Shown here piece by piece: positions 34,446 through 58,553 of a stretch of 64,000 nt of DNA. The notes beneath the pieces are model-generated. The model was not told where the DNA came from, did no database searches, and saw only the letters and a list, made by a program, of their open reading frames with translations. The position numbers and the translations under genes are program-made. Source of the DNA: Eledone cirrhosa (taxonomy: Eukaryota); assembly GCA_964016885.1 (NCBI GenBank), contig OZ024743.1, positions 205,034,001 to 205,098,000 of the forward strand, written 5' to 3'. Each line of letters opens with the position of its first letter. Position 1 is the first letter of the stretch.

Positions 34446-34478
<33 letters not shown>

Positions 34479-34662
34479 ATAAATCTACCAAGAGTTTACG
34501 GTAGTGTCCAATCCGTATGAAGAACTCAATGTATTCCGGATATCATGGAAAGAAGAAATGTAATGAAAAATCACTTTCGGTGAAAGATAAACGGTATACA
34601 GAGTCAAGATAAAATATTAAACAAATAATGAATAAACAATTCCTTATATTAAACAAAAAAAG

Positions 34663-34816
34663 TTCATTATTTAACGATCGTTTCTAGGATATATATGTGT
34701 TAGAGTTGGCATGCATATTCAACAGATCTATGTACAAAATTATACAAAATTATACAAACTATCAAGATTAAATATACATACCAACACATATATACGCCGT
34801 CTTCAGAAATAATGAA
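34663..34816 (-). ncRNA. Type I hammerhead ribozyme with very long stem II (PLE-A 3' end)
   Basis: Minus strand: UUCAUUAUUU-CUGAAGA-[~115-nt hairpin]-GAAA-CGAUCG-UU^AAAUAAUGAA; 10-bp stem I, intact core, palindromic stem III, GUU triplet. Confidence 0.8.
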
Positions 34817-35460
34817 ATATATTTATTGATAATAACAACAATTCAAACTTTCAGGTCCGTTTGGGAACAAAATTGACCAATGAAAATACAAAAGGTTTAA
34901 TGCCGTTCGGTGTGTGTATATACATGTAATAACCCTTACACATATTTTACAAAAATGTATGCACAACCTGTATACTCATACAAAAAGGATGGATGCAAAT
35001 ACAAAATTTCAAGGTTAATGTCTCTGTAAGTTTATAATGCACAGATAAGATGCGTATAGATACATAAATATGAAATAAATGTATACACATATTTTCATAC
35101 TAACACATATCCGTACAATCACACATACACGCGCGTATATGCATAAACATACACATAAACTACAAACATACAAACACACACACACCACCACTCACATATA
35201 TATATGTGGATATAAAATCCTAAGCACATGGATATTAATTCACTCACATAAACACTGGCACACACATTTAGATAAAGATACAGAAATTAGGTGGGAGGGG
35301 GGGGAGGTCAGTATTCAACAGTTTGGGCTGCCTGCTTAATATAGATGTATCTATAAACTAAGAAAATAAAAAATAATAATAAATAATAAATAAACATTAA
35401 AAAGGAAAGAAAAGAAAAAGAAAAAAGAAAAAAGAAAGAAGAAAGAAATATATCAAGAAA

Positions 35461-35491
<31 letters not shown>

Positions 35492-35720
35492 TCCACATAT
35501 ATATACCTATATATATATATACACATACATATACACATACATACACATACATACACACACACCCACACATATACATATACACATACACATATACAAACAC
35601 TTACATACATATACACACATCCACACTTAGAATATAACATACACACACATATATAAACATATACATATACACACATAGATACAAATACACTCATACATAT
35701 AAATACACATATATATATAC

Positions 35721-35773
<53 letters not shown>

Positions 35774-36066
35774 CATACACTCATACATAGGCATATAATC
35801 ACACATACTATATAGACACACATATATATACACACATACATACACATATACCTACACTTACATACATATATACATACAGATAAACACATACATACCTATA
35901 TATACACACACAAATACATACAGACATATATACATACATACAGACAAATACTTACGCATCTATATATCGGTATATACATACAAACACCACTACACTCTCA
36001 CACAACTCAGACATACAAAGAAAAAGGTATATACCCATACACATATACATATACAAATAGAGAAAC

Positions 36067-36098
<32 letters not shown>

Positions 36099-36404
36099 AT
36101 ATACATATACATATATATATATATATACATACATATACATATACACATACACACATACACATACAAACACATACATACACGTACACATACATAGATATAT
36201 ATACACACACATACACACATACACATACATATATAGTCATACACACACATACACCTACACGAACATACACATACACATATACAAAGATATATATACACAC
36301 ACACACACACATACACACACACACATATATATTAAAAAAAAAATAAAAAAAAAAAAAAATATATATAAAAAAAAAATAAAGATATATATATATATATATA
36401 TACG

Positions 36405-36458
<54 letters not shown>

Positions 36459-36907
36459 CACATACATACACACATACATAGACATATACGTACATACATA
36501 CATATACATAGATACATACACATACATACATACATATATATATATATACACACATAGACATATACATACATACACACACGACATACATACACACATATAT
36601 ACTCATACATAGAATTAGATATATAAACATACATACATACGCACTTACATATACTCATATATACCAATACAAACGCATCCATATATGCGTATATACATAG
36701 AAACACCACTACACCCTCACCCAATTCAGATATACAAAGAAAAAGGCATATACATATACATATAAACACGCATCAATAGAGATATATATACACATATATA
36801 CATATATATATATATGTGTGTACACACATACACTTATATACATATACCCACACACACATACAACCATAAATACACATACAAACACCCACATATATAAATA
36901 TATACAC

Positions 36908-36938
<31 letters not shown>

Positions 36939-37081
36939 TAAAAGACAGACATGCACACATATATATTTTTTTATACACATATATATACACATATATATAC
37001 ACATATACACACCCTCACATATACACATACACATAAGTTATATTATAATAATAAATAATATATATATATATATACACATAC

Positions 37082-37112
<31 letters not shown>

Positions 37113-38848
37113 CATATATATATATATACACACACACACATATGAATATAGACATATAAACACACATAGATATATATACATACATATATACACATACATA
37201 TACACACACACACATATACACATTCACATATACATGTGTGTGCATACACACATATATATACATACACACATATACACATAAACACATATATGTGTATACA
37301 TGCACACACACACATATATCCACATAGATACGAAGATATACATATAAATAGAGAGACATACATATATATACACACACACACATATACATACATACATACA
37401 CACACATATATATATATATACATATACATATATATATATATACATATATACACATATATATATATATATATATATACACATACAGACATACTCATACACA
37501 TACATATACACACATGCATATATACACACATATACAGATACATACACACATATATATATATACACACACAATCATACATTCTTATTTGCATGCGCATATA
37601 TGTATTTTTATATTCAGATATAAATACCCAAATATATATACACACCTACCTACATATATATTCATACATACACGCTTCCAAACACAGATGATAATAGTAT
37701 GGGGGAAAGGGGGGGGGGGTGGAGAAGGGGATTATAGTAAATATATGTTTCAAGAAACATAGAATATTCTCTGTATCTAGATCCAATGTATGTTTATACA
37801 TAGTATCAGTGTTAGGAAATACAATAAACAAGGAATAAGGCAAAATTTATGCAATTCAAAATAAATAAGTATACCATTAATTATATGTTAACTAAACTAA
37901 AGATAGTTAACATATTGATTTCTAAGGTGTAAATTAGTTAGGTTTATAATATTTGAAGCAGAATTTTGAAGTTAAATAGTAGTAGAGTATTAATTATAGT
38001 ATAACTAAATTAAAGTTAATAACTTTATGGTATCAATATTAGGAAATGAATTTAGTAATAGGGAAAAAAACAAATAAAGTATTACATCGGTAGTAGAATA
38101 TAAAATATAGGTTAATTAAATTAAAAATTATATATTTATTTCTATAGTATATGTTAATTAGGTATATAATAAATAAAACAGATATTGTATTTTATCAATA
38201 GCAGAATATAATTATATGCAAATAGAGATCAAAATTAATACATATACATATACATATACATACACATATATATATATACACATATATATACATATATATA
38301 TATACATATATACACACATACATACGCACACACATACACATACACATATACATATACGTATTTTTTCAAAAATTGCAAAGAATATATTAACTAGGTATAA
38401 ATCCAAAACACATCCCATTCTATGATTAGATGACATTCTGCAATTCGTCTGTATAAGGATATTAATTTTAAGCCAATTAAATTAAATTTTTAGGTTGATT
38501 AAAATTAAAACCAAATTATAAATATATTTCTAAAATGTATATTAATTAGGTCTATATTACTAAAAATTATTTCTCTGTCATTGGATACACTATATTTTGT
38601 TATATTTTATCTGTAAAAGAATTATAATTAAAAAAAAAAAAAAAAAAAAAAAATTATAATAAAAGGTTTAAATAAATTAAAATTAATCTATAAATTAAAA
38701 TACTAAGTATATATTAGTAATATTTAAAGGTTTTTCACAATTTATGATTACATAATATTTTATATTCTCATCTGTAATAGAATTTTAATTAAATTAAATT
38801 TATAGGTTAACTAACAATTAAATTAAATTAATTTCTAAAATAATGTTA

Positions 38849-41166
38849 TTAATTAGGTTTATATTTAATTGTTTTTTTTAGTTTATGATTACACGATATA
38901 ATTAATTCCTGTCGTTTATTTAATAGGATATCCTTAGATTTCATTATTTCAAATAGTTCTTGGGAACATAATCTACATTCATTTCTATTATTTTGATAAG
39001 GGGTGGCTCTTTTGAGCACACTCCAGGTCAAATCATATTCTATATTCTTATTTTTATAACTATTGATTTTTTCTGCTAGAGATGTTGTATTAGCCAGTGC
39101 GGCATTTTTAAAACTATGCTTATGGGTATTAAACCTTGTCTTAAAATTGTTAGAGGTAGCTCCTATATATGAGCAAATAGAATCTTTAGTTTTAACATTA
39201 CATTTATAGACTATGTTGTTAACAAGACAATTCCCTTTTAATGGGCAGTTTGCTTTGTTTCTACAGTTACAACCTTTCGTTAATTCTGTATTTGAGGAGA
39301 TATTATGGTTAATTTGATGTACTGGTGGTATACTTATGGTTTTCTTACATTTATATGCATTATAGGCACTTATATTTTGTTTTATGTTATTTGTTGTAGA
39401 GTATGAGAATTTAACTGTAGACCTATTTAAGATTTGATGGTATTTGTGGTTTGGCGGGAAGTTTTTCTCTAGGATATAAAAAAATTTTTTAGCAATATTA
39501 TCCTTAATTTGTAAATTAAATGGAGCATTATACCAAGTAACCCGTCTATTACGGTTTCTATGTTGTTTATTATTTTTATTATTTTTATAGGTTGTATCGT
39601 GATTTTTACTAGGAGGATTAATGTTAATGAACTCACCACAACCATTTTTAGTTATATTTGTAGATTTAGGTGTTTTATCCTTTTTATTAGGAGTTTTATT
39701 AATATGATAAGTAGTTTTTTGAGAGTTACTATACTTTATATTAGAAGATTTGGTATTTTGGGGTATAGTGTGGGTGGCATTTAGGTGTGTACTTTTCATT
39801 TGGTGTTTGTTGGTAATATTAGGTTGTATGCTTTCAGTATTTTTAGTAGAAGGTATATATTCTAATCTATTTTTGTGGCCACTTCTATCTAGAGCTTCGT
39901 TATAGAAGGTCGCATTTTTATCAAATACATCTTGGTTAGAAGAAAGGTTAGAAATTCTAAGTGATATATTATATGCAAGGTTTTTAAGGATAGATTTAGG
40001 GTGATTAGATTGTGAGTGTATGTAATGTAAGTTTTGGTTTGGTTTATGGTAAGGTTGGTAGATACCCGTAGCTAAATCTAAAGTTATATCTAGGAAATTT
40101 ACTACTTTACTTGTTTTTTCAAAAGTAATATTAAGATTATAATAGTCTTTAAGGAAAGTTCTAATATGTTTTTTGTTTTTTTCAATTTCTGAAAGGCTAA
40201 GGTTGTTAGAAAGAAGAAGACAGTCATCACGATATAAACCACCTTTGAGGTGGGGAAAGGAGGCATTTATGTTGAAAAGGAGAAAGAGGCCCACAAGATC
40301 AGTAATTTGGGCGGAATCGCTTGAACCCATAGTAATATCAAAAAGATTACTATATGTGTTTCTGGTCCAGTATTCATTCTGAAATTCAATAAGTGTTAGT
40401 CTAGCATGTGTAATAATATTAATGTCATCCAAAGTTAAGTTAGATCTATTTTTAGCAAATATCAATTCAGGAGTATAGGTGATATAGAAGAATAGTAATT
40501 ATCTATATCAAATTGTAGAAATGAAGCAGAAGATTTACATCTAATATTTTTAAACCAGTTAATTACCTGGGAAGTGTTTTCCCAGAGTGGTAAAATAACG
40601 TGTTTTCTTATTTGTGGGATGACTCTATCCAAAATTTTTTTGCTAATTATTCCAATATCTGATTTGGAGGGACATATAAGTCTAATAGAAGGATTTGAGT
40701 TAAAATTTGATTTATGATCCTTCAGGTTGAAGTGTAGTCTTTTCAATGCCAAAGGTTCAGTTCTATCTTCAATGTTTAGTTTTTTTACTATGTTGTGTGT
40801 TTTGTTGTTGATGTTGGTGAGTGACGCATTATTAGATTTTTTATAATTTTTTCTGAGTTCTTTATATATGAATTCATTATAATGTTCAATATCCATATGA
40901 TACAAGTTACCAGTTTTGTCCGAGTGGACATGGATTTTTTTAGACTTTTTTAGGTCCAATAGGGTAGAATCAAGGTCCTTTTGAAAGACGGATTTATACT
41001 TTTTAAATTTGAGGTGTTTAATTAAATTAAAAAGGTCTTTCTCGAAGTCTTCAAGTAAAAAGTTGTGTGGTGGATTCTTGTAAGTATTGAAATCATACAT
41101 ATATTTCCGATCTGCTTGTTTAGATTTTCTATCGAGGTGGTAGGCTCTCCATCTAACCCTTCTGAT
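38849..41166 (-). pseudogene. PLE polyprotein (reverse transcriptase + GIY-YIG endonuclease), one frameshift at ~40463, N-terminus lost
   Basis: Frame is open upstream of the ORF-track start to IRRVRWRAY at 41166. RT motifs QFDIDNYYSSI, FDITMGSSDSA, LYRDD, VNFLDI; linker CNCRNKANCPLKGNC; IVY...YIG, R..H; C-terminal CRLC..E...LNKR.E...CNH. Confidence 0.92.
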
Positions 41167-41380
41167 ATATTATATATATATTATATATTATATATATATT
41201 ATATATATATTATATATTATATATATATTATATATATATATATTATATATATATATATATTATATATATATTATATATATATATATATTATATATTATAT
41301 ATATATTATATATATATATATATTATATATTATATATATATTATATATATATATATATATATTATATATTATATATATAT

Positions 41381-41414
<34 letters not shown>

Positions 41415-41972
41415 ATATATTATATATATATTATATATATATATATTATATATATATTATATATATATATATTATATATATATATATTATATATATTTAT
41501 ATTATATATATATTATATATATATATATATTATATATATATATATATTATATATATATATATATTATATATATATATATTATATATATATATATTATATA
41601 TATATATATATTATATATATATATATTATATATATATATATATTATATATATATATATTATATATATATATATTATATATATATTATATATATATATATA
41701 TTATATATATATATATATTATATATATATATATTATATATATATATATATTATATATATATATATTATATATATATATATATTATATATATATATTTTAT
41801 ATATATATATATATATTATATATTATATATATATATATATTATATATATATATATTATATATATATATATATTATATATATATATATTATATATATATAT
41901 ATTATATATATATATATATTATATATATATATATTATATATATATATATTATATATATATATTATATATATT

Positions 41973-42004
<32 letters not shown>

Positions 42005-42020
42005 ATATATTATATATATT

Positions 42021-42051
<31 letters not shown>

Positions 42052-42270
42052 ATACATTATATATATTTATATATATTATATATTTATATATATTATATAT
42101 ATATATATATTATATATATATATATATTATATATATTTATATATATTATATATATTTATATATATTATATATATATATATATTATATATATATATATATT
42201 ATATATATTTATATATATTATATATATATATATATTATATATATATATATATATATAATAATATATATAA
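41167..42270. repeat. Interrupted (TA)n microsatellite
   Basis: Direct reading. Confidence 0.97.
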
Positions 42271-42413
42271 TGCCAAAAAAGCACCCAGCTCTCACTGTAA
42301 ATGAGGTTGGTGTTAGGAAGGGCATCCAGCTGTAGAAATCAGTTCCCGTCCCACCCTTGCAAGCAGGGAAAAGCGGATGTAAAATGATGATGATGATGAT
42401 GATGATGAATGAT
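42271..42413 (+). mobile_element. 5'-truncated SINE with RTE-derived tail and (ATG)n
   Basis: Matches the 3' half of 44025-44359; ends cccgtcccacccttgcaagcagggaaaagcggatgtaaa(atg)n. Confidence 0.88.
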
Positions 42414-42527
42414 ATATATATATATAATATATATTATATATATTGTATATATATTATATATATTGTATATATATTATATATATTGTATATATATGTATAT
42501 ATATTGTATATATATATATATATAATA

Positions 42528-42570
<43 letters not shown>

Positions 42571-42581
42571 ATATATAATAT

Positions 42582-42932
42582 ATCATCATCATTTCATTCA
42601 TCATTTCATTTTACGTCCACTTTTCCCTGCTTGCAAGGGTGGGACGGGAACTGATGCTGGCTTGATTTCTACAGCTGGATGCCCTTCCTAACACCAACCT
42701 CATTTACAGTGAGTGCTGGGTGATTTTTTTTTTTTCTACCGTGGCACCTCTACGCCCACTTTGCAGTGGAATGATATGGACCCCAGTCCCTATCATCTCA
42801 TTTCTACAGCTGAGTAAACTGGAGCATCATGAAATAAAGTGTCTTGCTCAAGGAAACAACACATCACCCGGTCTGAGAATTGAACTCACAACCTTTCGAT
42901 TGCAAGGCCAATGCTCTAACCACTAAGCCATG
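42582..42932 (-). mobile_element. Near full-length tRNA-derived CORE-type SINE with RTE tail
   Basis: Reverse complement of 44025-44359, including A box, B box and (CAT)n tail. Confidence 0.9.
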
Positions 42933-42960
42933 TATATGTATAATATATATATTATATATA

Positions 42961-43924
42961 GCGGTGCTCAGGTGCCCACATTGCACAGATGGTTCTATAG
43001 AAATAGTGGACACCTTCCGTTACCTGGGTGACAAAATCAGCAGTGGTGGAGGGTGCTCTGAAAGTACAGTAGCCAGAGCTTATACCACTATTGGCCGCTA
43101 AAGGGTTCTCTCTAAAAATGAAAGGCAGGCTGTATGATGTCTGCATACGAACAGCAATGTTACATGGCAGTGAGACCTGGCATTGTGTGCAGAGGATATA
43201 CGCAGACTGGAGAGGAACGAAGCTTGCATGCTCTGCTGGATGTGTAATAGTAATATACGTGAACGGCAAAGCATAAATGAACTAAGGGATAAATTAGGAA
43301 TAAGAGGGATTAGATGTTGTTTACTCGAGAGAAGACTATGTTGGTACGGTCACGTGATGCACATGAAAGACGACAGCTGTATAAAAAAGTGCAGGGCGAT
43401 AAAAATAGATGGTAGCCACGGAGTAGGCAGACCCAGAAAAACCTGGGACGACTTGATAAATTCCGACCTCACACACTTACACCTCTCCAAGACAATGTCA
43501 CTGGACCGAGATCTTTGGCGTTACATAGTAATACAGAAGACACGCCTTGCCTAAGTACAAAGCGAAACCTACAGTCAGTAGGCACCACTAACAAAAATAC
43601 ACCCCCGTCCCACTACCACCACCCCTTTCAATGTAAAGTTATGTTGGTACCACAACATCCAGGCCGAATCAAATGAGGTCGTGTAGGTGTCACGACAAAA
43701 AAAACACACAGTCCACGCTTTAATGTGGCCGTGTAAGTAACACGGTAAAAAACCTCCAGTCCACACTAAACGTGGTTGGTGTTAGGAAGGGCATACAGCC
43801 GTAGAAAACCCGCCAGACAGTGCTATACGAGCAAGTCAACCAATCTTGCCTCAAGTGGGAAAATTCTCGTCCAAACCCATGCAAGCGTGGAAGATGGACG
43901 GTAAACGATGATGATGATGATGAT
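42961..43924 (+). mobile_element. RTE LINE family 2, 3' fragment with deletions, ~370-bp 3' UTR and (GAT)n tail
   Basis: Translates to IEIVDTFRYLG, MLHGSETW, RRLCWYGHVMHM, GRPRKTW; near-identical to 63600-64000. Confidence 0.9.
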
Positions 43925-43939
43925 ATAATACATATATTA

Positions 43940-43979
<40 letters not shown>

Positions 43980-44024
43980 TATATTATATATATTATATAT
44001 ATAATGTATATATTATATATATAT

Positions 44025-44359
44025 GGAGGCACATGGCTTAGTGGTTAGAGCATTGGCCTTGCAATCGAAAGGTTGTGAGTTCAATTCTCAGACAGGGTGA
44101 TGTGTTGTTTCCTTGAGCAAGACACTTTATTTCACATTGCTCCAGTTTACTCAGCTGTAGAAATGAGATGATAGGGACTGGGGTCCATATTATTCCACTG
44201 CAAAGTGGGCGTGGAGGTGCCACGGCAAAAAAGCACCCAGCACTCACTGTAAATGAGGTTGGTGTTAGGAAGGGCATCCAGCTGTAGAAATCAAGCAGAA
44301 TCAGTTCCCGTCCCACCCTTGCAAGCAGGGAAAAGCGGACGTAAAATGATGATGATGAT
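44025..44359 (+). mobile_element. Full-length tRNA-derived SINE: tRNA head + CORE-like box + RTE 5'UTR-like segment + RTE 3' tail
   Basis: A box tggcttagtgg, B box gttcaattc, CORE-like ccttgagcaagacactt, segment aaaagcacccag...ggtgttaggaagggcatcca shared with 59589-59641, tail identical to 62735-62795. Confidence 0.92.
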
Positions 44360-45637
44360 ATAATATATATATTATATATATATATAATATATATATATAT
44401 AATATATATATATAATATATATATTATATATATATATATTTTATATATATTATATATATAATTTTATATATATTATATATATATATAATGTATATATTAT
44501 ATATATTATATATATATATAATGTATATATTATATATAATGTATATATTATATATATTATATATATATATAATGTATATATTATATATATTATATATATA
44601 TATAATGTATATATTATATATATTATATATATATATATAATATATATATTTTATATATATTATATATATATATAATATATATATTTTATATATATTATAT
44701 ATATATATAATATATATATTTTATATATATTATATATATATATAATATATATATTATATATATATATAATATATATATTTTATATATATTATATATATAT
44801 ATAATATATATATTATATAAATATATAATATATATATTTTATATATATTATATATATATATAATATATATATTATATAAATATATAATATATATATTTTA
44901 TATATATTATATATATATTTTATATATAATATATATATATATAATATATATATTATATATATATATAATATATATATTATATATATATATAATATATATA
45001 TTATATATATATATAATATATATATTATATATATATATAATATATATATTATATATATATATATATTATATATATATATAATATATATATTATATATATA
45101 TATAATATATATATTATATATATATATAATATATATATTATATATATATATAATATATATATTATATATATATATAATATATATATTATATATATATATA
45201 ATATATATATTATATATATATATATAATATATATATTATATATATATATATAATATATATATAATATATATATATAATATATATATAATATATATATTAT
45301 ATATATATATAATATATATATTATATATATATATAATATATATATTATATATATATATAATATATATATTATATATATATATAATATATATATTATATAT
45401 ATATATATAATATATATATTATATTTATATATAATATATATATTATATTTATATATAATATATATATTATATATATTATATATATATATAATATATATAT
45501 TATATATATAATATATATATTATATATATATATAATATATATATTATATATATATATATTATATATATTATATATATATATAATATATATATTATATATA
45601 TATATAATATATATATTATATATATATATAATATATA

Positions 45638-45714: not shown

Positions 45715-45719
<5 letters not shown>

Positions 45720-45830
45720 TTGAAAAAAATGAAAACGAAATTTCATTTCTCACTCTTAGTATGGCACTTACTTAAATGTAAGTATGTATGTATACGTACA
45801 TACATATATGTATACAGACGTACAGTAGCA

Positions 45831-45898
<68 letters not shown>

Positions 45899-46253
45899 TA
45901 CATACAGGTACACATACATATATGCACGCATCAGTTTAGCGGACGCTTATTATAACGCCGCTTTGTTCGTTTGTAAACAAACTGAACAGCCTGAATTTAT
46001 GCCATACGGTGTTAAGGCAACCACGTCACCTTTTGTTCAACACTGATACAGGAACGATGTACTAGTTTCAAGCTTGTTAGCTATCATCAGCACCGTATTT
46101 TCATCTGCCAGATAGTTGAACGTTCGAAAGTATATACTTTCCTTATGAAAATTAATGGCTGAGCAGCCTAATTTGCATATTGAGTGAGTTAAATCAGTCA
46201 GGCATACCGAAAACGATAAGTTGAAAAAAATGAAAACGAAATTTCATTTCTCA
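45715..46253 (-). mobile_element. Putative retrozyme B: 501-bp non-coding unit with 38-bp terminal direct repeat and one HHR
   Basis: ataagttgaaaaaaatgaaaacgaaatttcatttctca at 45715-45752 and 46216-46253; HHR at 46054-46096; (TA)n on both sides. Confidence 0.78.
46054..46096 (-). ncRNA. Minimal type I hammerhead ribozyme
   Basis: Minus strand: ACGGUG-CUGAUGA-U-AGCU-AACA-AGCU-U-GAAA-CUAG-UA^CAUCGU; 6-bp stem I (one GU), 4-bp stem II, palindromic ACUAGU, GUA triplet. Confidence 0.88.
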
Positions 46254-46325: not shown

Positions 46326-46357
<32 letters not shown>

Positions 46358-46786: not shown

Positions 46787-46833
<47 letters not shown>

Positions 46834-47452: not shown

Positions 47453-47492
<40 letters not shown>

Positions 47493-47780: not shown

Positions 47781-47798
47781 TATTTATTTATTAAAATA

Positions 47799-47874
47799 AC
47801 AGATTAAAGTTTAAGCAAAGAATCGCTGCTTTCACCCTTAACGGGATCTTCTGAAACTAACAAAGTCAATCTGT
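47799..47874 (-). ncRNA. Type I hammerhead-like motif with variant core (CAGAAGA)
   Basis: Minus strand: ACAGAUUGA-cuuuguu-AGUUU-CAGAAGA-U-CCC-GUUAA-GGG-U-GAAA-GCA-gcgauucuu-UGC-UU^AAACU-UUAAUCUGU; all three stems pair, core has U4->A. Confidence 0.7.
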
Positions 47875-47947
47875 AAACGCAGAACTGGATATTTCAAAAA
47901 ACGTTGCAACCGGAGGAAGACAGGAAGACGATACTTTGGTTCATGGT

Positions 47948-48209
47948 GACGTTCGATGGCAAAGAACGGGAAAAACGAATAATACGTCATTAATAGGAGC
48001 GGTGAAAAACAATTACGTGCAAGGACAGAACCACGTTTATGGTATAAAAGAGGTCGTAGACTAATGTTCTCTAAGTGGTGCATAGAGACGTTCTCTGGCA
48101 ATGAACGGAAAAAACGAAGATAATAAGTCATATGTGGAGCGTGGAGAACAATAGCGTGCAAAGACAAAACCACGTAAATGGTATAGCAGAAGTCGTAGAC
48201 TAAAATTCT
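47948..48209. repeat. Diverged 139-bp tandem duplication in PLE-B 3' region
   Basis: gacgttc..tggcaa.gaacgg.aaaaacgaa...cgtgcaa.gaca.aaccacgt..atggtata...ga.gtcgtagactaa begins at 47948 and 48087. Confidence 0.85.
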
Positions 48210-48784
48210 AACTAGGAGACCAAATGAATCTCCGCTACAGAGTTAAGAACAAAGTAAATAAATACAATACAGAAGTAATAGGAACAAATAAATACATACA
48301 CGCAAACAGATACGTACATACACAAGCATACGCAAAACCTTACCATAGGTATACAAAACCACGCACATATAAATATGTGTATGTGTGTATGCTTGTGTAC
48401 AAATAAATAAATAATTATATAAACGTATATAAGTAAATAAATACGTAAATAACAAGCGCACACACATACCTACAAATAAATACATGAAGGTTCGGAGACG
48501 TAAGTCAACTAAAACAAGAAGTACACATATACACACACCCACCATACGTACGAACCTGCATACTCATGCAGACGCAAAACTCCCATATACACATAACCAA
48601 GCCCTAAATACCAGAATATGTAAAAATTATATGCCAAAACAGTCAAATATACGTACGAGAAGGTATACATACCTTCACAAAACATACGGGTAATATATAC
48701 TTACCTATGCAAATAAGTAAAGGAATAAACAAAACATATACTTAGCTCCCACATCAAGACGTAAATATCCACGTATAGATCGTG

Positions 48785-49375
48785 CTATCCGTTAGGGTAT
48801 AACGTAGGGCTGTAATACAGGAAAGTTTTGTGCAATTTATGTTTACAAGCCGAAATTGCCTCAGATTTTTTGTTTAAGATGCGGTCTGTGGCGTAGAGTA
48901 TTTCCAGGGCCTCAGCGGCGCATAGGTCACATGGTCTTTTATTTCCGTTATACGATCTAGCCCTAGCTAGGATCTCCCAGTGTAACTTATATTGGGTGTG
49001 GTTGTCTTTTAGACTCCAGATATAAGCTGAAAGTGACGTCATATTCCTTCTTAGAGGGTAACGAAAAGAATGGGTATGCATGTAAAGACGCTGCTTGAAA
49101 CTATTGGCGGTTAACCCTATGTAGGCCCTACGGGACGTGGGTGTTACAACCTTACATTTGTAGACAATGTTACTAGAGAGGCATTTCCCGGATAGGGGAC
49201 AATCAGCCCGATTCCTACAATTACAGTTAGTACTAACTACAGGGTTGCACGTGTTCCTACGGCTAGGTAGTTTAGCTAAATTTGAAGCTGTGATGTTATG
49301 TGCAAGGTTAGGAGTCGTTGAGTAAGAAATTTTAATAGTGTTTATATTAAAAATTTTACTATATTTATCTGTAGG
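48785..49375 (-). pseudogene. PLE-B C-terminal linker + GIY-YIG endonuclease (5'-truncated, frame open)
   Basis: Extending the ORF-track frame upstream gives KIFNINTIKISYSTTPN...CNCRNRADCPLSGKCLSSNIVYKC...AYIGLTANSFKQRLYMHTHSF...CDLCAAE...LNKKSEAISACKH. Confidence 0.9.
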
Positions 49376-49462
49376 GGTTGCTCTTCAGTTCTTATATATT
49401 TGATATATATTTTCCTTATCGAGCCCTCTCTGGATTTTAGTCTTCAATTTTATTATTATTAC

Positions 49463-49493
<31 letters not shown>

Positions 49494-49574
49494 CATATTA
49501 TATATATATATTATATACATATTATATATATATATTATACATATTATATATATATTATACATATTATATATATA

Positions 49575-49612
<38 letters not shown>

Positions 49613-49747
49613 CATATTATATATATAATATATATATTATATATAATATATATATATTATATATAATATATATATATAATATATATATATAATATAAAAT
49701 ATTAAACAAATAATGAACAAACAATTCCTTATATTAAACAAAAAAAG

Positions 49748-49902
49748 TTCACTATTTAACGATCGTTTCTAGGGTATATATGTGTTATAATTGGTATGCA
49801 TATTTAACAGATCTATGTACAAAATTATACAAAATTATACAAATTATCAAGATTAAATATACATACCTAACTCATATATACGCCGTCTTCAGAAATAATG
49901 AA
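49748..49902 (-). ncRNA. Long-stem-II hammerhead ribozyme, PLE-A copy 2
   Basis: UUCAUUAUUU-CUGAAGA...GAAA-CGAUCG-UU^AAAUAGUGAA; core unchanged, stem I change U-A to U-G keeps pairing. Confidence 0.8.
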
Positions 49903-50675
49903 GTATATTTATTGATAATAACAACAATTCAAAATATCAGTTCAAAATTGACCAATGAAAACACAAAGGGTTAAAAAGCAGTTTGGTGTGTGTATATACA
50001 TGTAAAACCCCACACACATTTTACAATAATGTGTGTATAATTTGTATGTGCATACTAAAAAGATGGATGCAAATAAAAAATTTCAAGGTTAATATCTCTG
50101 TAAGCTTAATGCGCTGATAAGATACGCAATGATACTTATGGAGTCAAGCATATAATATATTTTTTTCATACTCACACATATCAGTATAATCACACATACA
50201 TGTGCGTATATATATAAATATACACATAACCACGAACACACAAACACACACACTCCCCCACTCACATTTATATATGTGGATATAAAATCATAAGCAAATA
50301 GAAATTAAGTCACTCACATAAACACACTGGTACACACATTTCAAGATCAAGATACAGAAATTAGGTGGGAGGGGGGGGAGGGGTCAGTATTTGATTGTCA
50401 GACCAGACAGCCTAATATAAATGTATCTATAAATTATGAAAAATAAAAAATAAAAAAATAAAAACAATAAAATATAATACATATAATATAATGTACATAC
50501 GCATACAGATATACATACACATACATACATGTACGCGCACATAGAGATATCTACACATACATACATACACACATACCTATACTTTCATACACACGCATAC
50601 ATTTACACGAACATACACATACACATATAAAAAGATATAAATACGGACACACACACGCGCAACACATACACACAT

Positions 50676-50726
<51 letters not shown>

Positions 50727-50835
50727 TATACACACACACATAGACTCATATATATATACATACACATACATACACTTATACACAAACATATATATCCCAC
50801 ACTCATACCACCATAAAAACACATACAAACATCCA

Positions 50836-50873
<38 letters not shown>

Positions 50874-51091
50874 TATATCAACATACACACACGTACACAT
50901 ATATGTATATATACATACACATATACACACATACACATATATATATACACACACACATAAAATACAGACATGCACATATATATATATATATATATATATT
51001 TCATTACTCTTATATATACACATAGTATATATACATACACAACCTCACTTATACACATATACACATAAGTTATATTACAATAATAATAAAG

Positions 51092-51130
<39 letters not shown>

Positions 51131-51273
51131 TATACACACATATACACATATACATACATACACATACATATACATACATACATACACATACATACATACA
51201 CCTAAATATAAACATATATAAATACACACATACGAATAAAGACATATATTCACACATAGACACCTATATACAC

Positions 51274-51307
<34 letters not shown>

Positions 51308-53154
51308 CCATATACACACACATACACATACATACACATATACATATACATACACATATACACACACGCACACACATACAGACACACATACACACTCACA
51401 TATATATATATATATATATATATATGTGTATGTGAGTGTGCGCAAATACATATATATATATACACACACACATACAAACACACACAAACACATACATATG
51501 CATACGTGCACACACACACACATATATCACATAGATACGAAGATAAACATATAAATAGAGAGACATACAAATATATACAGAACCCATATACACATACATA
51601 CAAACACGCATATACATATATATACATATATACACACATATATATTCCTATATACAAGCATACACATACACACACATATATACATATACATACACAAATA
51701 CATACCACGCATTCACATACACGTACATATATAATACATATATATACATATATATACATACATATGTATGTACAATCATATATACACACTCAATCTTACA
51801 TTCATATTTACATGCTCATATATGTATTTTTATATTTAGAAATAAATACCAAAGAAACTATATAGACACCCATCTACACATATATTCATACATATACACT
51901 TACAAAAACAGATGATAATAGTATGGGGGAAAGGGGGGGTTTGGAGAAGGGGATCAAAGTAAATATAAGTTTCAAGAAACATATAATATTTTCCATATCT
52001 TAATTCAATGTATGTTCCCACATATTTACAGTGCTAGGAAATACGAAATCTATGCATCACAAAATAAAAAAGTATACCATTAATCATATGTCAACTAAAC
52101 CAAAGATAGTCAACATATTGATTTCCAAGGTGTAAATTAGTTAGGTTTATAATATTTGAAGCAGAATTATGAAGTCAAACAGTAGTAGATTATTAATTAC
52201 ATTATAACTAAATTAAAGTTAATAACATTATGGTATCAATATTAGGAGATGAATTTAGTAATAGGGAAAAGAAACCCAAATAAAAATAAAATAAAGTATT
52301 ACATCGGTAGTAGCATATAAATTATATGTTAACTAAGTTAAAAATTATATATTTTTTTCAATAGTATATGTTAATTAGTATATGTTAATTAGGTATACAA
52401 TACATAAAGCAGATATTGTATTTCATCAATAGCATAATATAATTATATGCAAATAAAAATCAAAATTAATACGCATACATATACATATACATACACATAC
52501 ACATACATATACATATACATACACATATATATATATATATATATACATATATATACACATACATACATATATAGTCACATAAATATACATACAGATACAC
52601 ATACAACACACACATATACATATACATATAGATATACATATCTTTTTCAAAAAATTTGCACAGAATATATTAACTAGGTATATATCCAAAAACACCTCCC
52701 ATTCTATGATTACATGACATTCTGCAATTTGTCTGTACAAGGATACTAATTTTAAGCAAATTAAAATTAAAATTAAAGTTTTAGGTTGATTAAAGCTAAA
52801 ACCAAATAATAAATATATTTCCAAAATGTATATTAATTAGGTCAATAATACTAAAAATTCTATCTCCGTCATAGGATACATGATATTATTTTGTTATATT
52901 TTATCTGTAAAAGAATTATAATAAAAAAAATTATAATAAAAGGTTAAACTAAATTAAAAAATTATAATAAAAGGTTAAAATAAGTTAAAATTAATCTATA
53001 AATTAAATTACTGAATATATATTATTAGTAATATTTAAAGGTTTTTCAAAATTAATGATTACATAATATTTTCTCATCTGTAATAAAATATTAATTAAAT
53101 TAAATTTATAGGTTAACTAACATTTAAATTAAATTAAATTCTAGAATAATGTTA

Positions 53155-54492
53155 TTAATTAGGTTTATAATATTTAAATGTTTTTTTTAGTTTATGATTA
53201 CACGATATAATTAATTCCTGTCTTTTATTTAATAAGATATCCCTAGACTTCATTATTTCAAATAGTTCTTGGGAACATAATCTACATTCCTTTCTATTAT
53301 TTTGATAAGGGGTGGCTCTTTTGAGCACACCCCAGGTCAAATCATATTTTATATTTTTATTTTTATAACTATTGATTTTTTCTGCTAGAGATGTTGTATT
53401 AGCCAGTGCGGCATTTTTAAAGCTATGTTTGTGGGTATTATACCTTGTCTTAAAATTGTTAGAGGTAGCTCCTATATATGAGCAAATAGAATCTTTAGTT
53501 TTAACATTACATTTATAGACTATGTTGTTAACAAGACAATTCCCTTTTAATGGGCAGTTTGTTTTGTTTCTACAGTTCATCCTTTCGTTAATTCTGTATT
53601 TGAGGAGATATTATTGTTAATTTGATGTACTGGTGGTATACTTATAGTTTTCTTACATTTATATGCATTATATGCACTTATATTTTGTTTTATGTTATTT
53701 GTTGTAGAATATGAGAATTTAACTGTAGACCTATTTAAGATTTGATGGTATTTGTGGTTTGGCGGGAAGTTTTTCTCAAGGATATAAAAAAATTTTTTAG
53801 CAATATTATCCTTAACTTGTAAATTAAAAGGAGCATTATACCAAGTAACTCGTCTATTACGGTTTCTATGTTGTTTATTATTTTTATTATTTTTATATGT
53901 TGTATCATGATTTTTACTAGGAGGAATAATGTTAATGATCTCACCACAACTATTTTTAGTTATATTTGTAGATTTAGATGTTTTATCTTTTTTATTAGGA
54001 GTTTTATTATTAATATTTATTATAGTCTTATGATGAGTAGTTTTTTGAGGGTTACTATACTTTATATTAGAAGATTTAGTATTTTGGGGTATACTGTGGG
54101 TGGCATTTAGGTGTGTACTTTTCATTTGGTGTTTGTTGGTAATATTATGCTGTATGCTTTCAGTATTTTTAGTAGAAGGTATATACTCTAATCTATTTTT
54201 GTGGCCACTTCTATCTAGAGCTTCATTATAAAAGGTCGCATTTTTATCAAATACATCTTGGTTAGAAGAAAGGTTAGAAATTCTAAGTGATATATTATAT
54301 GCAAGGTTTTTAAGGATAGATTTAGGGTGATTAGATTGTGAGTGTATGTAATGTAAGTTTTGGTTAGGTTTATGGTAAAGTTGGTATATACCCGTAGCTA
54401 AATCTAAAGTTATATCTAGGAAATTTACTACTTTACTTGTTTTTTCAAAAGTAATATTAAGATTATAATAGTCTTTAAGGAAAGTTCTAATA
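53155..54492 (-). pseudogene. PLE-A copy 2 RT C-terminus + GIY-YIG, 1-nt frameshift at ~53578
   Basis: Same protein as 38849-40165; GGT TGT AAC TGT became GGA TG- AAC TGT. Confidence 0.9.
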
Positions 54493-54728
54493 CCAATTAT
54501 AACACATATATACCCTAGAAACGATCGTTAAATAGTGAACTTTTTTTGTTTAATATAAGGAATTGTTTGTTCATTATTTGTTTAATATTTTATCTTGACT
54601 CTGTATACCGTTTATCTTTCACCGAAATTGGATTTTCATTACATCTCTTCTTTCCATGATATCCGGAATACATTGAGTTCTTCATACGGATTGGACACTA
54701 CCGTAAACTCTTGGTAGATTTATCTACA
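54490..54728 (+). mobile_element. Inverted copy of the PLE-A 3' terminus joined to the truncated 5' end
   Basis: Reverse complement of 34474-~34712, carrying copy-2 variants (ccctagaaac, aaatagtgaa); 'ata' microhomology at junction. Confidence 0.92.
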
Positions 54729-54981
54729 TATATATAATATATATATTATATATATAATATATATATTATATATAATATATATATTATATATATAATATAT
54801 ATATATATTATATATAATATATATATTATATATATAATATATATATATTATATATAATATATATATTATATATATAATATATATTATATATATATATATA
54901 ATATATATATAATATATATTATATTATATATATATTATATATATTATATATATATTATATATATTATATATATATTATATA

Positions 54982-55170
54982 GGGCGGTGGATTGGCAGTA
55001 TCGGTAGAGGGTCGGACGCCATGCTTTGACGCATAGAGTTACGACCCTTGCCATTCTGAGTTCAAATGCCGCCGAGGTAAACTTTGCCTTTCATCCTTAC
55101 GGGGTCGATAAAATAAAGTACCAGTAATGTACTGGGTAATTGTGGCCTTGTGCCAAAAGTAGAAACAATT
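54982..55170 (+). mobile_element. tRNA-derived SINE with Meta-like central domain
   Basis: A-box-like tggcagtatcgg, B box gttcaaatgcc, central gcctttcatccttacggggtcgataaaataaagtaccag. Confidence 0.8.
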
Positions 55171-55228
55171 ATATATATATTATATATATTATATATATAT
55201 ATTTTATATATATATATTTTATATATAT

Positions 55229-55409
55229 AATTGTTTCTACTTTTTGGCACAAGGCCAGCAATTATTCCAGTGCATTACTGGTACTTTATTTTATCGACCC
55301 CGTAAGGATGAAAGGCAAAGTTAACCTCGGCGGGATTTGAACTCAGATCATAAAGGGAGGTAACTCTATGCTTCAAAGCATGGCATCCGACCCTTACCGA
55401 TACTGCCAA
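55229..55409 (-). mobile_element. Second copy of the same SINE, inverted (tail-to-tail)
   Basis: Reverse complement of 54991-55170 with substitutions. Confidence 0.82.
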
Positions 55410-55477
55410 ATATATATTTTATATATATAATATAAATATTATATATATTATATATATATTATATATATTATATATAT

Positions 55478-55534
55478 TCTCGTTTACTCGTTTACCTGTT
55501 TCAGCCATCCGGCTGAGGCCATGCTGGGGCACCG
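55478..55534 (-). mobile_element. Short 3'-end fragment of another SINE/LINE
   Basis: Minus strand cggtgccccagcatggcctcagccggatggctgaaacag + (gtaaacga)2 tail; hairpin plus short tandem tail, inside (TA)n. Confidence 0.55.
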
Positions 55535-55921
55535 TATATATATATATTTTATATATATATATTTTATATATATATATATTTTATATTTATAATATAAATA
55601 TTATATATATTATATATATATATATATATATTTTTATATATATTTTATATATATATATGTATAATATATATATTATATATATAATATATATATTATATAT
55701 ATATATATTATAAATATATATATAATATATATATTATATATATTTTATAAATATATATATATATTGGAATAAATGCTCTGAAATAGCGATATATATGTGA
55801 ATATAGACATAGAATATTCGAAAATATTCTGTATGTTTATAATAAACATTTTGAAGACCTAATCGCTATAGAATAGAATACGTCACGTATTACAATTAGA
55901 TTCTCGATAAAAGCAAGGGAA

Positions 55922-55964
55922 GTAATCTACGCGTTTCATTCTTGTTAGAAATCATCAGGACTAC
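55922..55964 (-). ncRNA. Minimal type I HHR (also 56232-56274, 56542-56584; broken copy 56852-56886)
   Basis: Reverse complement of the motif at 57147-57189. Confidence 0.88.
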
Positions 55965-57146
55965 ATATCCAGTGCTTTTATCGAGAATGACACAGCTAGA
56001 GACTTATAGAATACTTAGCTGTGTACAGGAACTGGTTTGAAAGAGCGGTTGCCGGTCCGGCAGAAATTAGAAATTGGAATAAATGCTCTGAAATAGCGAT
56101 ATATATGTGAATATAGACATAGAATATTCGAAAATATTCTGTATGTTTATAATAAACATTTTGAAGACCTAATCGCTATAGAATAGAATACGTCACGTAT
56201 TACAATTAGATTCTCGATAAAAGCAAGGGAAGTAATCTACGCGTTTCATTCTTGTTAGAAATCATCAGGACTACATATCCAGTGCTTTTATCGAGAATGA
56301 CACAGCTAGAGACTTATAGAATACTTAGCTGTGTACAGGAACTGGTTTGAAAGAGCGGTTGCCGGTCCGGCAGAAATTAGAAATTGGAATAAATGCTCTG
56401 AAATAGCGATATATATGTGAATATAGACATAGAATATTCGAAAATATTCTGTATGTTTATAATAAACATTTTGAAGACCTAATCGCTATAGAATAGAATA
56501 CGTCACGTATTACAATTAGATTCTCGATAAAAGCAAGGGAAGTAATCTACGCGTTTCATTCTTGTTAGAAATCATCAGGACTACATATCCAGTGCTTTTA
56601 TCGAGAATGACACAGCTAGAGACTTATAGAATACTTAGCTGTGTACAGGAACTGGTTTGAAAGAGCGGTTGCCGGTCCGGCAGAAATTAGAAATTGGAAT
56701 AAATGCTCTGAAATAGCGATATATATGTGAATATAGACATAGAATATTCGAAAATATTCTGTATGTTTATAATAAACATTTTGAAGACATAATCGCTATA
56801 GAATAGAATACGTCACGTATTACAATTAGATTCTCGATAAAAGCAAGGGAAGTAATCTACGCGTTTCATTCTTGTTAGAAATCATCGCTTTTATCGAGAA
56901 TCTAATTGTAATACGTGACGTATTCTATTCTATAGCGATTAGGTCTTCAAAATGTTTATTATAAACATACAGAATATTTTCGAATATTCTATGTCTATAT
57001 TCACATATATATCGCTATTTCAGAGCATTTATTCCAATTTCTAATTTCTGCCGGACCGGCAACCGCTCTTTCAAACCAGTTCCTGTACACAGCTAAGTAT
57101 TCTATAAGTCTCTAGCTGTGTCATTCTCGATAAAAGCACTGTATAT

Positions 57147-57189
57147 GTAGTCCTGATGATTTCTAACAAGAATGAAACGCGTAGATTAC
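57147..57189 (+). ncRNA. Minimal type I HHR (also 57457-57499, 57767-57809, 58077-58119, 58387-58429)
   Basis: GUAGUC-CUGAUGA-U-UUCU-AACA-AGAA-U-GAAA-CGCG-UA^GAUUAC; stem I extended by perfect 16-bp attctcgataaaagca/tgcttttatcgagaat (57123-57211); predicted cut after 57183. Confidence 0.9.
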
Positions 57190-58553
57190 TTCCCTTGCTT
57201 TTATCGAGAATCTAATTGTAATACGTGACGTATTCTATTCTATAGCGATTAGGTCTTCAAAATGTTTATTATAAACATACAGAATATTTTCGAATATTCT
57301 ATGTCTATATTCACATATATATCGCTATTTCAGAGCATTTATTCCAATTTCTAATTTCTGCCGGACCGGCAACCGCTCTTTCAAACCAGTTCCTGTACAC
57401 AGCTAAGTATTCTATAAGTCTCTAGCTGTGTCATTCTCGATAAAAGCACTGGATATGTAGTCCTGATGATTTCTAACAAGAATGAAACGCGTAGATTACT
57501 TCCCTTGCTTTTATCGAGAATCTAATTGTAATACGTGACGTATTCTATTCTATAGCGATTAGGTCTTCAAAATGTTTATTATAAACATACAGAATATTTT
57601 CGAATATTCTATGTCTATATTCACATATATATCGCTATTTCAGAGCATTTATTCCAATTTCTAATTTCTGCCGGACCGGCAACCGCTCTTTCAAACCAGT
57701 TCCTGTACACAGCTAAGTATTCTATAAGTCTCTAGCTGTGTCATTCTCGATAAAAGCACTGGATATGTAGTCCTGATGATTTCTAACAAGAATGAAACGC
57801 GTAGATTACTTCCCTTGCTTTTATCGAGAATCTAATTGTAATACGTGACGTATTCTATTCTATAGCGATTAGGTCTTCAAAATGTTTATTATAAACATAC
57901 AGAATATTTTCGAATATTCTATGTCTATATTCACATATATATCGCTATTTCAGAGCATTTATTCCAATTTCTAATTTCTGCCGGACCGGCAACCGCTCTT
58001 TCAAACCAGTTCCTGTACACAGCTAAGTATTCTATAAGTCTCTAGCTGTGTCATTCTCGATAAAAGCACTGGATATGTAGTCCTGATGATTTCTAACAAG
58101 AATGAAACGCGTAGATTACTTCCCTTGCTTTTATCGAGAATCTAATTGTAATACGTGACGTATTCTATTCTATAGCGATTAGGTCTTCAAAATGTTTATT
58201 ATAAACATACAGAATATTTTCGAATATTCTATGTCTATATTCACATATATATCGCTATTTCAGAGCATTTATTCCAATTTCTAATTTCTGCCGGACCGGC
58301 AACCGCTCTTTCAAACCAGTTCCTGTACACAGCTAAGTATTCTATAAGTCTCTAGCTGTGTCATTCTCGATAAAAGCACTGGATATGTAGTCCTGATGAT
58401 TTCTAACAAGAATGAAACGCGTAGATTACTTCCCTTGCTTTTATCGAGAATCTAATTGTAATACGTGACGTATTCTATTCTATAGCGATTAGGTCTTCAA
58501 AATGTTTATTATAAACATACAGAATATTTTCGAATATTCTATGTCTATATTCA

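What the first reader, a model, noticed from the sequence alone, without database searches (positions are those of the whole stretch)
34475..58553. Co-located PLE + retrozyme system: four HHR families with their likely mobilising enzymes
Seen: within 24 kb lie two PLE families (RT/GIY-YIG), each ending in an HHR, and two non-coding HHR elements. All are bounded by (TA)n, and two share a divergent inverted architecture. Known: PLEs carry type I HHRs in their terminal repeats and are proposed to mobilise non-LTR retrozymes; YRDD, CxCx5C and C-terminal CxxC...CxH fit the Naiad group. Inference: an autonomous/non-autonomous pair in which PLE protein retro-inserts ribozyme-processed circles into TA microsatellites.
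Basis: partly seen in the sequence, partly recalled or inferred. Interest (0 to 1): 0.85.

Follow-up and report, generated by a model that had tools for sequence, protein, structure and literature searches.

The report
Retrozymes bearing Penelope insertion footprints
Two small non-coding ribozyme repeats sit in this genome as back-to-back arrays with one long and one short fixed end, just as its Penelope-like jumping genes do, so Penelope-type enzymes likely copied them in, probably from circular RNA; their closeness to two Penelope copies here is likely chance.

Summary
The four hammerhead families are real: two PLEs and two non-coding retrozymes (R1, 310 nt; R2, about 484 nt), with 4,500-25,000 motif hits each. 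The PLEs are Hydra-clade, not Naiad, and their window copies are broken. Co-location is near chance (about 1.5 such clusters expected) in a TA-rich hot spot. Trans-mobilisation is strongly supported. R1 insertions are divergent two-arm arrays with two fixed 3' ends: 53 of 53 end pairs are one long plus one short, the PLE 'tail' footprint. R2 (14 of 16 clear), PLE-A and PLE-B follow the rule; an RTE-tail control does not. Both R1 arms carry the same haplotype (32 of 34; 4.2 shuffled) and join at scattered phases with microhomology. Likely mechanism: a PLE protein cuts (TA)n and primes both target ends at two sites on one template, probably a circle copied for many laps. The partner is unproven: young Neptune-type PLEs also follow the rule, and their tail lengths fit better. 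The pairing is already proposed in print; this footprint was not found in my searches. An earlier scan note saw a similar tandem-plus-inverted insert on other DNA.

The parts
34475..41170 (-). PLE-A copy 1 (Hydra clade): slightly 5'-truncated, frameshifted ORF 41169-38849, ~4.2-kb microsatellite-rich 3'UTR, ends at the family's long end
34663..34816 (-). PLE-A hammerhead-like motif: canonical core, 115-nt stem II hairpin, GUU site
45715..46253 (-). Retrozyme R2, 1.1 units, ending at the family's long end; HHR at 46054-46096
47785..49377 (-). PLE-B (Hydra clade), 5'-truncated to EN + 3'UTR, ending at the short end; HHR variant (U4A, CUU site) at 47808-47858
49378..49461 (+). PLE-B inverted tail-only arm, from the short site to the long end
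49691..54492 (-). PLE-A copy 2 body, truncated within RT, ending at the short end; HHR at 49748-49902
54490..54727 (+). PLE-A copy 2 inverted arm, ending at the long end
55758..56886 (-). Retrozyme R1 left arm, 3.6 units of 310 nt, long end (phase 165)
56887..58553 (+). Retrozyme R1 right arm, 5.4 units, short end (phase 130); first HHR at 57147-57189

Best explanation
R1 and R2 are non-coding hammerhead repeats whose insertions show the same head-to-head, one-long-end-plus-one-short-end structure as this genome's PLEs, and they are likely inserted in trans by a PLE protein that would cut a (TA)n target and prime both target ends at two fixed internal sites of one template RNA, probably a self-cleaved, re-circularised monomer copied for several laps. 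Shown: architecture, fixed ends, strict long+short pairing, shared arm haplotype, scattered junction phases, junction microhomology. Inferred: (1) HHR cleavage and circularisation of array transcripts; (2) recognition by a PLE RT-EN, perhaps as a dimer; (3) two primed cDNAs made from the same RNA; (4) joining of their 3' ends by microhomology-mediated repair. PLE-A and PLE-B are Hydra-clade elements that use the same two-site insertion, often on linear RNA with a fixed 5' end. Which PLE family serves R1 or R2 is not shown, and their nearness in this window reflects a TA-rich hot spot.
For: R1 has two fixed 3' ends (1,056 and 1,253 genome hits). On C1 up to 217.8 Mb, 53 of 53 divergent end pairs within 20 kb are long+short, none long+long or short+short (82 long and 100 short ends examined; 29 and 47 unpaired). 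In loci chosen by the HHR alone, 8 of 10 insertions are divergent and all 8 are long+short. R2: 14 of 16 clear, 2 ambiguous. PLE-A: 16 of 17 scorable. PLE-B: 12 of 14 clear, 2 ambiguous. Adjacent minus-then-plus versus plus-then-minus hits among the first 100: PLE-A 33:2, PLE-B 15:2, R2 16:2, RTE-tail control 2:2. Arms share haplotype in 32 of 34 arrays, 19 haplotypes, shuffle mean 4.2, maximum 13. Both arms exceed one unit in 41 of 47, up to 27 units. No arm begins at phases 1-12, just after the cleavage site (0 of 94), whereas 14 of 33 PLE-A pairs have both arms stopping near one place. Microhomology of 2 nt or more in 24 of 35 junctions without insertion versus 19% by chance; 16 of 51 junctions have inserted bases. 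A purified PLE cuts and extends both strands and starts at two adjacent internal sites that define the tail (PMC11167929).
Against: No RNA evidence of expression, cleavage or circles. Long arms stop at the short-site phase more often than chance (9 of 47 vs 3.3; p 0.005, window chosen after looking), which suits twin priming on a linear multimer in some events. Arm lengths barely correlate (rho 0.23, p 0.13). Junction phases are not perfectly flat (chi-square p 0.04). Homogeneous linear multimer transcripts would also give matching arms. In vitro, the Anolis PLE did not need HHR cleavage. Absence of array-wide changes from the HHR core (0 of 16 sites) is expected about half the time by chance. 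No sequence homology ties R1 or R2 to any of seven PLE 3' ends after multiple testing. Samples come from the start of contig C1, and many loci were chosen for having minus/plus pairs.
Confidence: 0.65

Rival explanations
1. PLE-mobilised as above, but the template is an uncleaved linear multimer transcript read through a parent array, with the two primers landing in different units.
For: Long-arm stops are enriched at the short-site phase (9 of 47); the window's PLE-B inverted arm is exactly short site to long end; unprocessed RNA was the main substrate in vitro; one array switches haplotype inside an arm (L187).
Against: 38 of 47 long arms stop elsewhere; no arm starts just after the cleavage site; arrays would shrink each generation without re-expansion; R1 and R2 keep canonical cores while PLE-A and PLE-B carry H17=U or U4A.
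Confidence: 0.22
2. One reading: the co-located PLE-A and/or PLE-B (Hydra) are the specific partners of R1 and R2.
For: Both are abundant and young; PLE-A has intact 813-aa ORFs (3 of 4 examined); R2 lies near PLE-A more often than random (7 of 39 vs 1.8); R2 long end vs PLE-B long end nominal p 0.011.
Against: Tails: PLE-A 136, PLE-B 86, R1 26-35, R2 61; Neptune-type E 38, G 41, F 50, D 64. Best end matches are Neptune-type E (R1, nominal p 0.006-0.024) and D (R2, p 0.002), not significant over about 70 comparisons. Window copies are broken, and action in trans needs no neighbour.
Confidence: 0.3
3. Single short copies are inserted by PLEs and the tandem arms grow later by local amplification (unequal crossover), as the 2026 preprint suggests for retrozyme arrays.
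For: Model stated in 10.64898/2026.07.22.740005; units within arrays are near identical; a few private changes recur in two units (L170, L085).
Against: Both arms are multi-unit in 41 of 47 very young arrays (private change rate 4e-4 per base); private changes are almost all single-unit, with no spreading blocks; arm lengths have mean close to s.d. (1,400 and 1,228), as for a stochastic polymerase stop.
Confidence: 0.08
4. The arrays are moved by another machinery (RTE or other LINE, DNA transposon) or are fold-back assembly artefacts.
For: An intact-looking RTE ORF lies 1 kb away; RTE-tail copies also sit in TA (10 of 30).
Against: No (ATG)n tail; the RTE control is not divergent (2:2); junction phase and arm length differ at every locus, so no fixed palindromic master; the two arms are not mirror images, which excludes fold-back reads.
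Confidence: 0.03

Closest known systems
Hydra clade PLEs (Craig et al. 2021, PMC8557442; e.g. Hydra-1_Obim)
   Same: C-terminal EN, RWR/RWK, DKT, YRDD, CxCx5C linker, CxxC and CxH around the EN end, no CCHH, HHR present, (TA)n target; Hydra-1_Obim's listed HHR also has U at the cleavage position.
   Different: PLE-A unit is 6.45-6.68 kb (Hydra generally under 3 kb) with a 4.2-kb microsatellite-rich 3'UTR and a 115-nt stem II; tails are 136 and 86 nt rather than 30-40; thousands of copies with clear pLTR tandems.
Metazoan non-LTR retrozymes (Cervera and de la Pena 2020, PMC7229834; Li et al. 2026, 10.64898/2026.07.22.740005)
   Same: Non-coding head-to-tail repeats of a few hundred nt with one type I HHR per unit, low GC; proposed to spread through circRNA with PLE help.
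   Different: Here the arrays are head-to-head two-arm structures with fixed long and short ends, not described in the text I read; unlike the Xenopus families, no homology to a PLE pLTR was found; R2 (about 460-520 nt) holds an internal microsatellite.
PLE tail and inverted pLTR; internal two-site initiation of Anolis Poseidon (PMC11167929, PMC3846280)
   Same: Inverted head-to-head arm, tail at one end only, two adjacent initiation sites, AT-rich target, both strands extended.
   Different: The in vitro work saw no difference in start site between strands and did not address pairing per insertion; here pairing is near-obligate long+short and applies to non-coding passengers with multi-unit arms.
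Naiad PLEs
   Same: (TA)n target, tail and inverted structures.
   Different: Naiads have an N-terminal EN, CxC domain, DKA and no canonical HHR; PLE-A and PLE-B have a C-terminal EN, DKT and an HHR.
L1 twin priming (recalled, not read here)
   Same: Two target ends prime on one RNA; the cDNAs join by microhomology.
   Different: L1 primes first at the poly(A) end and its segments do not overlap; here both sites are internal and fixed, and both arms repeat the same sequence many times.

Membership tests
Naiad | GIY-YIG EN N-terminal to RT | tested here: not met
   EN follows RT in full ORFs L114, L115, L117, L119; definition
Naiad | DKG modified to DKA; no canonical HHR | tested here: not met
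   DKT in both families; HHR-like motif present
Hydra PLE | C-terminal EN, single ORF | tested here: met
   813-aa PLE-A ORF in 3 of 4 loci; PLE-B 641 aa then frameshift in L119. EN called by motif; Pfam gave no hit
Hydra PLE | RWK-type motif and DKT | tested here: met
   RWR and DKT in PLE-A and PLE-B
Hydra PLE | CxCx5C linker; CxxC and CxH at EN end; CCHH absent | tested here: met
   no CxxC before YIG, unlike Neptune-type D, E, F
Hydra PLE | HHR and (TA)n insertion | tested here: met
   HHRs are variants, activity untested
Hydra PLE | Groups with named Hydra RTs in a phylogeny | tested here: inconclusive
   Quick tree separates PLE-A/B/C plus 14 of 118 unnamed homologues (SH-aLRT 100) from DKG-type PLEs; no named reference could be loaded; Hydra-1_Obim compared by eye only
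Hydra PLE | Generally under 3 kb | tested here: not met
   PLE-A 6.45-6.68 kb, PLE-B 3.26 kb; a typical, not diagnostic, trait
Non-LTR retrozyme | Short non-coding tandem units, one type I HHR each | tested here: met
   R1 310 nt up to 27 units; R2 about 460-520 nt up to 6 units
Non-LTR retrozyme | Not simply the pLTR of an autonomous PLE | tested here: met
   Units read through into the next unit, not an ORF; only microsatellite-level matches to PLE-A/B/C and none to Neptune-type ends; PLE survey incomplete
Non-LTR retrozyme | Self-cleavage and accumulation as circRNA | not testable with these tools
   No RNA holder listed; core intact; R1 monomer folds stably as a circle, z -4.5
PLE-mobilised element | Tail at one end plus inverted head-to-head arm | tested here: met
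   control
RTE-mobilised SINE | RTE-type (ATG)n 3' tail, no divergent arms | tested here: not met

The most novel reading that the evidence does not exclude
Animal retrozyme arrays are born whole in one event: a PLE dimer makes a double-strand cut in (TA)n, each half starts at one of two fixed sites on a single ribozyme-made RNA circle, and two rolling-circle cDNAs of up to about 27 laps are joined head to head. The long+short rule holds for Hydra and Neptune-type PLEs and for passengers with no detectable homology to them, so it would be the general PLE integration mechanism, and the short RNA region around the two sites (kept among R1-like families while the ribozyme changes) would be a portable signal for writing circular RNA into genomes.
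Probability: 0.4. Interest if true: 0.8.

Novelty: new variant of a known kind. Interest (0 to 1): 0.6.

Why it matters
Two open questions meet here: which enzyme moves animal retrozymes, and how PLEs make their inverted-plus-tail insertions. Published support for the PLE-retrozyme link, as far as I read, is shared ribozymes, co-occurrence and pLTR homology in Xenopus. This genome gives an insertion footprint in over a thousand very young R1 arrays, with exact start sites, a strict pairing rule and intact candidate enzymes, so an existing in vitro assay could test it directly. It also argues that these tandem arrays arise at insertion, not by later satellite-like growth.

Tried and rejected
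Rfam scans: no hammerhead at gathering score; the E-value listing was swamped by TA/CA miRNA look-alikes, with only 150 of 259 rows shown. Pfam on the window's PLE frames: nothing significant. PDB sequence search: nothing. DNA search of the genome with the R1 monomer returned nothing because common words are skipped; exact patterns were used instead. PF26215 is not in the search library; PF01541 was used and gave the Neptune-type families. Searches for a PLE carrying the R1/R2 loop-II sequence: 10 and 3 hits, old relics with no PLE ORF beside them in tblastn for L154-L163; two base combinations were not covered. An R1-like HHR next to Neptune-type G proved to be a separate small insertion. Partner assignment by end similarity: nominal hits only. 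Sequencing runs: no RNA holder listed; contigs of four runs of unknown kind show the monomer joined end to start, which tandem DNA also gives; not used as evidence. Naiad, RTE mobilisation, fixed palindromic master and fold-back artefact were rejected as set out above. Two scripts stopped on errors; the missing parts were rerun. The careful tree did not finish. The host species was not determined.
Full report
OBSERVATION. The window is C4:205,034,001-205,098,000 of a 3.0-Gb assembly; the host was not determined. Reading 34-59.6 kb and translating the frames confirms five elements between (TA)n tracts: PLE-A copy 1 (34475-41170), R2 (45715-46253), PLE-B (47785-49461), PLE-A copy 2 (49691-54727) and the R1 array (55758-58553). 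Rfam finds no hammerhead at gathering score, but stems I-III and the core can be traced in each. R1 and R2 have the canonical core, a GUA site, a U-U pair at the base of stem II and the same 6-nt loop II. PLE-A has a 115-nt stem II and GUU (43 of 43 copies in L094-L113). PLE-B has U4A (37 of 38) and CUU (47 of 47). No window PLE can supply protein: copy 1 is frameshifted and lacks about 32 N-terminal codons, copy 2 starts inside RT, and PLE-B has only the EN. Three elements, not two, are divergent.

CLADE. Craig et al. 2021 (PMC8557442; passages, section 11 and supplement rows seen) define Naiad by an N-terminal EN and no canonical HHR. They define Hydra by a C-terminal EN, RWK, DKT, CxCx5C, CxxC/CxH, no CCHH, an HHR and (TA)n targets. 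Full copies elsewhere in the genome (PLE-A 813 aa, intact in 3 of 4 loci examined; PLE-B 641 aa to a frameshift) meet the Hydra list and fail the Naiad list. PLE-A and PLE-B are 48% identical over RT; of 118 homologues, 96 contain DKT and 103 a YRDD-type motif. A quick tree of 22 rows separates PLE-A/B/C and 14 homologues from the DKG-type PLEs; no named reference was in it.

CO-LOCATION. Exact motif counts are R1 4,541, R2 10,718, PLE-A 8,100 and PLE-B 25,327, all lower bounds. Converting these roughly to loci (1,250; x0.55; x0.6; x0.8, factors judged by eye from the first 100 hits), about 1.5 four-family clusters of 24 kb are expected under uniform placement. Pairwise proximity on C1 is mildly raised (R2 near PLE-A 7 of 39 vs 1.8; R1 near PLE-B 3 of 9 vs 1.3; R1 near PLE-A 2 of 23 vs 1.1) and flat against the RTE control. 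The region is 18% pure TA run against 2.5% around RTE-tail loci. It is a landing hot spot, not a unit.

THE FOOTPRINT. R1 arms end at phase 165 after the cleavage site (long; 1,056 hits) or at 130-139 (short; 1,253 hits). Among 82 long and 100 short ends on C1 up to 217.8 Mb (18 listed long ends beyond that were left out), 53 divergent pairs lie within 20 kb and all 53 are long+short; 29 long and 47 short ends were unpaired. These patterns see only those two ends. Loci picked by the HHR alone agree: 8 of 10 insertions are divergent and all 8 are long+short; one runs into a gap and one shows a single arm. In regions I chose for minus/plus pairs, R2 gives 14 of 16 clear, PLE-A 16 of 17 scorable and PLE-B 12 of 14, with none long+long or short+short. 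Among the first 100 hits of each pattern, minus-then-plus neighbours within 12 kb outnumber plus-then-minus 33:2 (PLE-A), 15:2 (PLE-B) and 16:2 (R2), but 2:2 for an RTE-type (ATG)n tail. RTE tails abut TA in 10 of 30, against 14 of 16 outer R1 ends in the HHR-selected loci (by eye). The tail at one end and the inverted arm are known PLE marks (PMC3846280, passages). Frangieh et al. (PMC11167929, parts 1-2 of 4) call the tail unique to PLEs, show it is the gap between two internal RT start sites, and show that the protein cuts and extends both strands.

ONE TEMPLATE, MANY LAPS. In 34 R1 arrays with full units on both arms, 32 have the same haplotype in both (19 haplotypes; shuffle mean 4.2, maximum 13). 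One mismatch is a single-unit change; the other (L187) starts both arms on one haplotype and switches inside the long arm. In 47 simple two-arm insertions both arms exceed one unit in 41 and two units in 30; the longest has 27 units. Inner ends are scattered round the monomer (chi-square p 0.04) and none of 94 falls at phases 1-12. In contrast, 14 of 33 PLE-A pairs have both arms stopping near one spot just 5' of the ribozyme core, as expected for run-off at a transcript start (inference). Of 51 junctions, 16 have inserted bases, and 24 of the other 35 have 2 nt or more of microhomology against 19% by chance. Array-wide substitutions in 37 arrays fall at 16 sites: none in the 12 core bases, five at free ribozyme positions (N7, 10.1, loop II). 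Two of 46 single-unit changes do hit the core; 0 of 16 is weak on its own. Against the circle: long arms stop at the short-site phase in 9 of 47 (3.3 expected, post hoc window), arm lengths correlate weakly (rho 0.23, p 0.13), and cleavage was not needed in vitro. No RNA data were available.

WHICH PARTNER. R1 and R2 share nothing with PLE-A, -B or -C beyond the ribozyme core and microsatellite. A GIY-YIG search (10,595 candidates, 150 scored) and 20 fetched loci showed at least five families with DKG or YLDD, a Cx4CxxC linker and CCHH-type EN (Neptune/Nematis-type by motif) and long open frames, one with 1,025 aa from Met and pLTRs (L268; 780 long-end hits). They too end in (TA)n at two sites and form long+short pairs. 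Tails are PLE-A 136, PLE-B 86, D 64, F 50, G 41, E 38, R2 61, R1 26-35. End-anchored similarity favours E for R1 (p 0.006-0.024) and D for R2 (p 0.002; PLE-B 0.011), none significant over about 70 comparisons. R1-related families (L266, L237, L282) keep the region round the two ends at 75-78% while their ribozymes differ, and they also end long+short, which points to that region as the cis signal. The partner is open; I lean slightly to the Neptune-type families.

PRIOR WORK. Cervera and de la Pena 2020 (PMC7229834; passages and Discussion) propose circRNA templates, tandem cDNA and PLEs as candidates; the 2020 review repeats this (PMC7761336, passages). Li et al. 2026 (10.64898/2026.07.22.740005; parts 1-3 of 5, abstract through discussion; supplements not available and may bear on this) argue from co-occurrence and Xenopus pLTR homology, and suggest local amplification for the arrays. 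Craig et al. note non-autonomous Chlamys elements with multicopy insertions. I found no report of divergent retrozyme arrays, fixed long/short ends in retrozymes, or obligate pairing in searches; the library lacks most subscription papers. An earlier scan note (e1-7908855) saw a tandem-plus-inverted hammerhead insert in another genome and its follow-up called it a PLE tail; I tested that reading here and R1/R2 read through unit to unit with no ORF. L1 twin priming is recalled, not read.

VERDICT. Real elements; wrong clade; co-location incidental; trans-mobilisation by a PLE about 0.9; one template with two primers about 0.75; circle about 0.65. New variant of a known kind, interest 0.6.

Noticed in passing
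window 1-34400: About 5.6 tandem copies of a ~6.1-kb unit built from 11/12-mer AT-rich satellite, (AATAA)n, a 65-bp purine-rich dimer and CA/TA palindromes.
   Followed up: no
window 59524-62772 (+), fragments 62904-63962 and 43174-43554: RTE-type LINE ORF of 1,082 aa with AP endonuclease, RT and a PHD-like finger; short RTE-tail copies at about 42275-42410, 42590-42740 and 44020-44340.
   Followed up: partly
window 54985-55170 (+) and 55210-55410 (-): Convergent pair of a SINE-like repeat separated by (TA)n; the RTE-tail pair at 42275-42740 is also convergent.
   Followed up: no
window 34820-38849 and 49900-53155: PLE-A carries a ~4.2-kb 3'UTR made largely of CA/TA microsatellite, kept in full-length tandem units (6.45-6.68 kb); unusual for Hydra elements.
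   Followed up: partly
window 34685-34800 (-): PLE-A ribozyme stem II is a 115-nt hairpin (about -40 kcal/mol) kept in both copies despite substitutions.
   Followed up: partly
L088:3276-4943 (-): Third Hydra family (PLE-C, 54% to PLE-A) with a C-for-U4 core variant, also divergent.
   Followed up: partly
L266:332-705, L237:2449-2864, L282:9008-9103: R1-related retrozyme families that keep the end region but have different ribozymes, one with a C3U/G8A-type core.
   Followed up: partly
L274:7500-7720, L280:3266, L268, L271: Small palindromic non-coding element with an R1-like ribozyme and long/short ends; source unknown.
   Followed up: partly
L266-L285: At least five young Neptune/Nematis-type PLE families and one further DKT/YVDD family (L276); over ten distinct hammerhead-like motifs in these flanks.
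   Followed up: partly
L135 (C1:5.54 Mb): R2 array whose units alternate at one base (A,G,A,G), as from a dimeric template; an R1 array lies directly beside it.
   Followed up: no
L131-L133, L079: PLE-B palindromic insertions whose two arms meet inside the ribozyme core, at the same spacing in four independent loci.
   Followed up: no
L159-L163: Old, dispersed hammerhead relics sharing the R1/R2 loop II.
   Followed up: no
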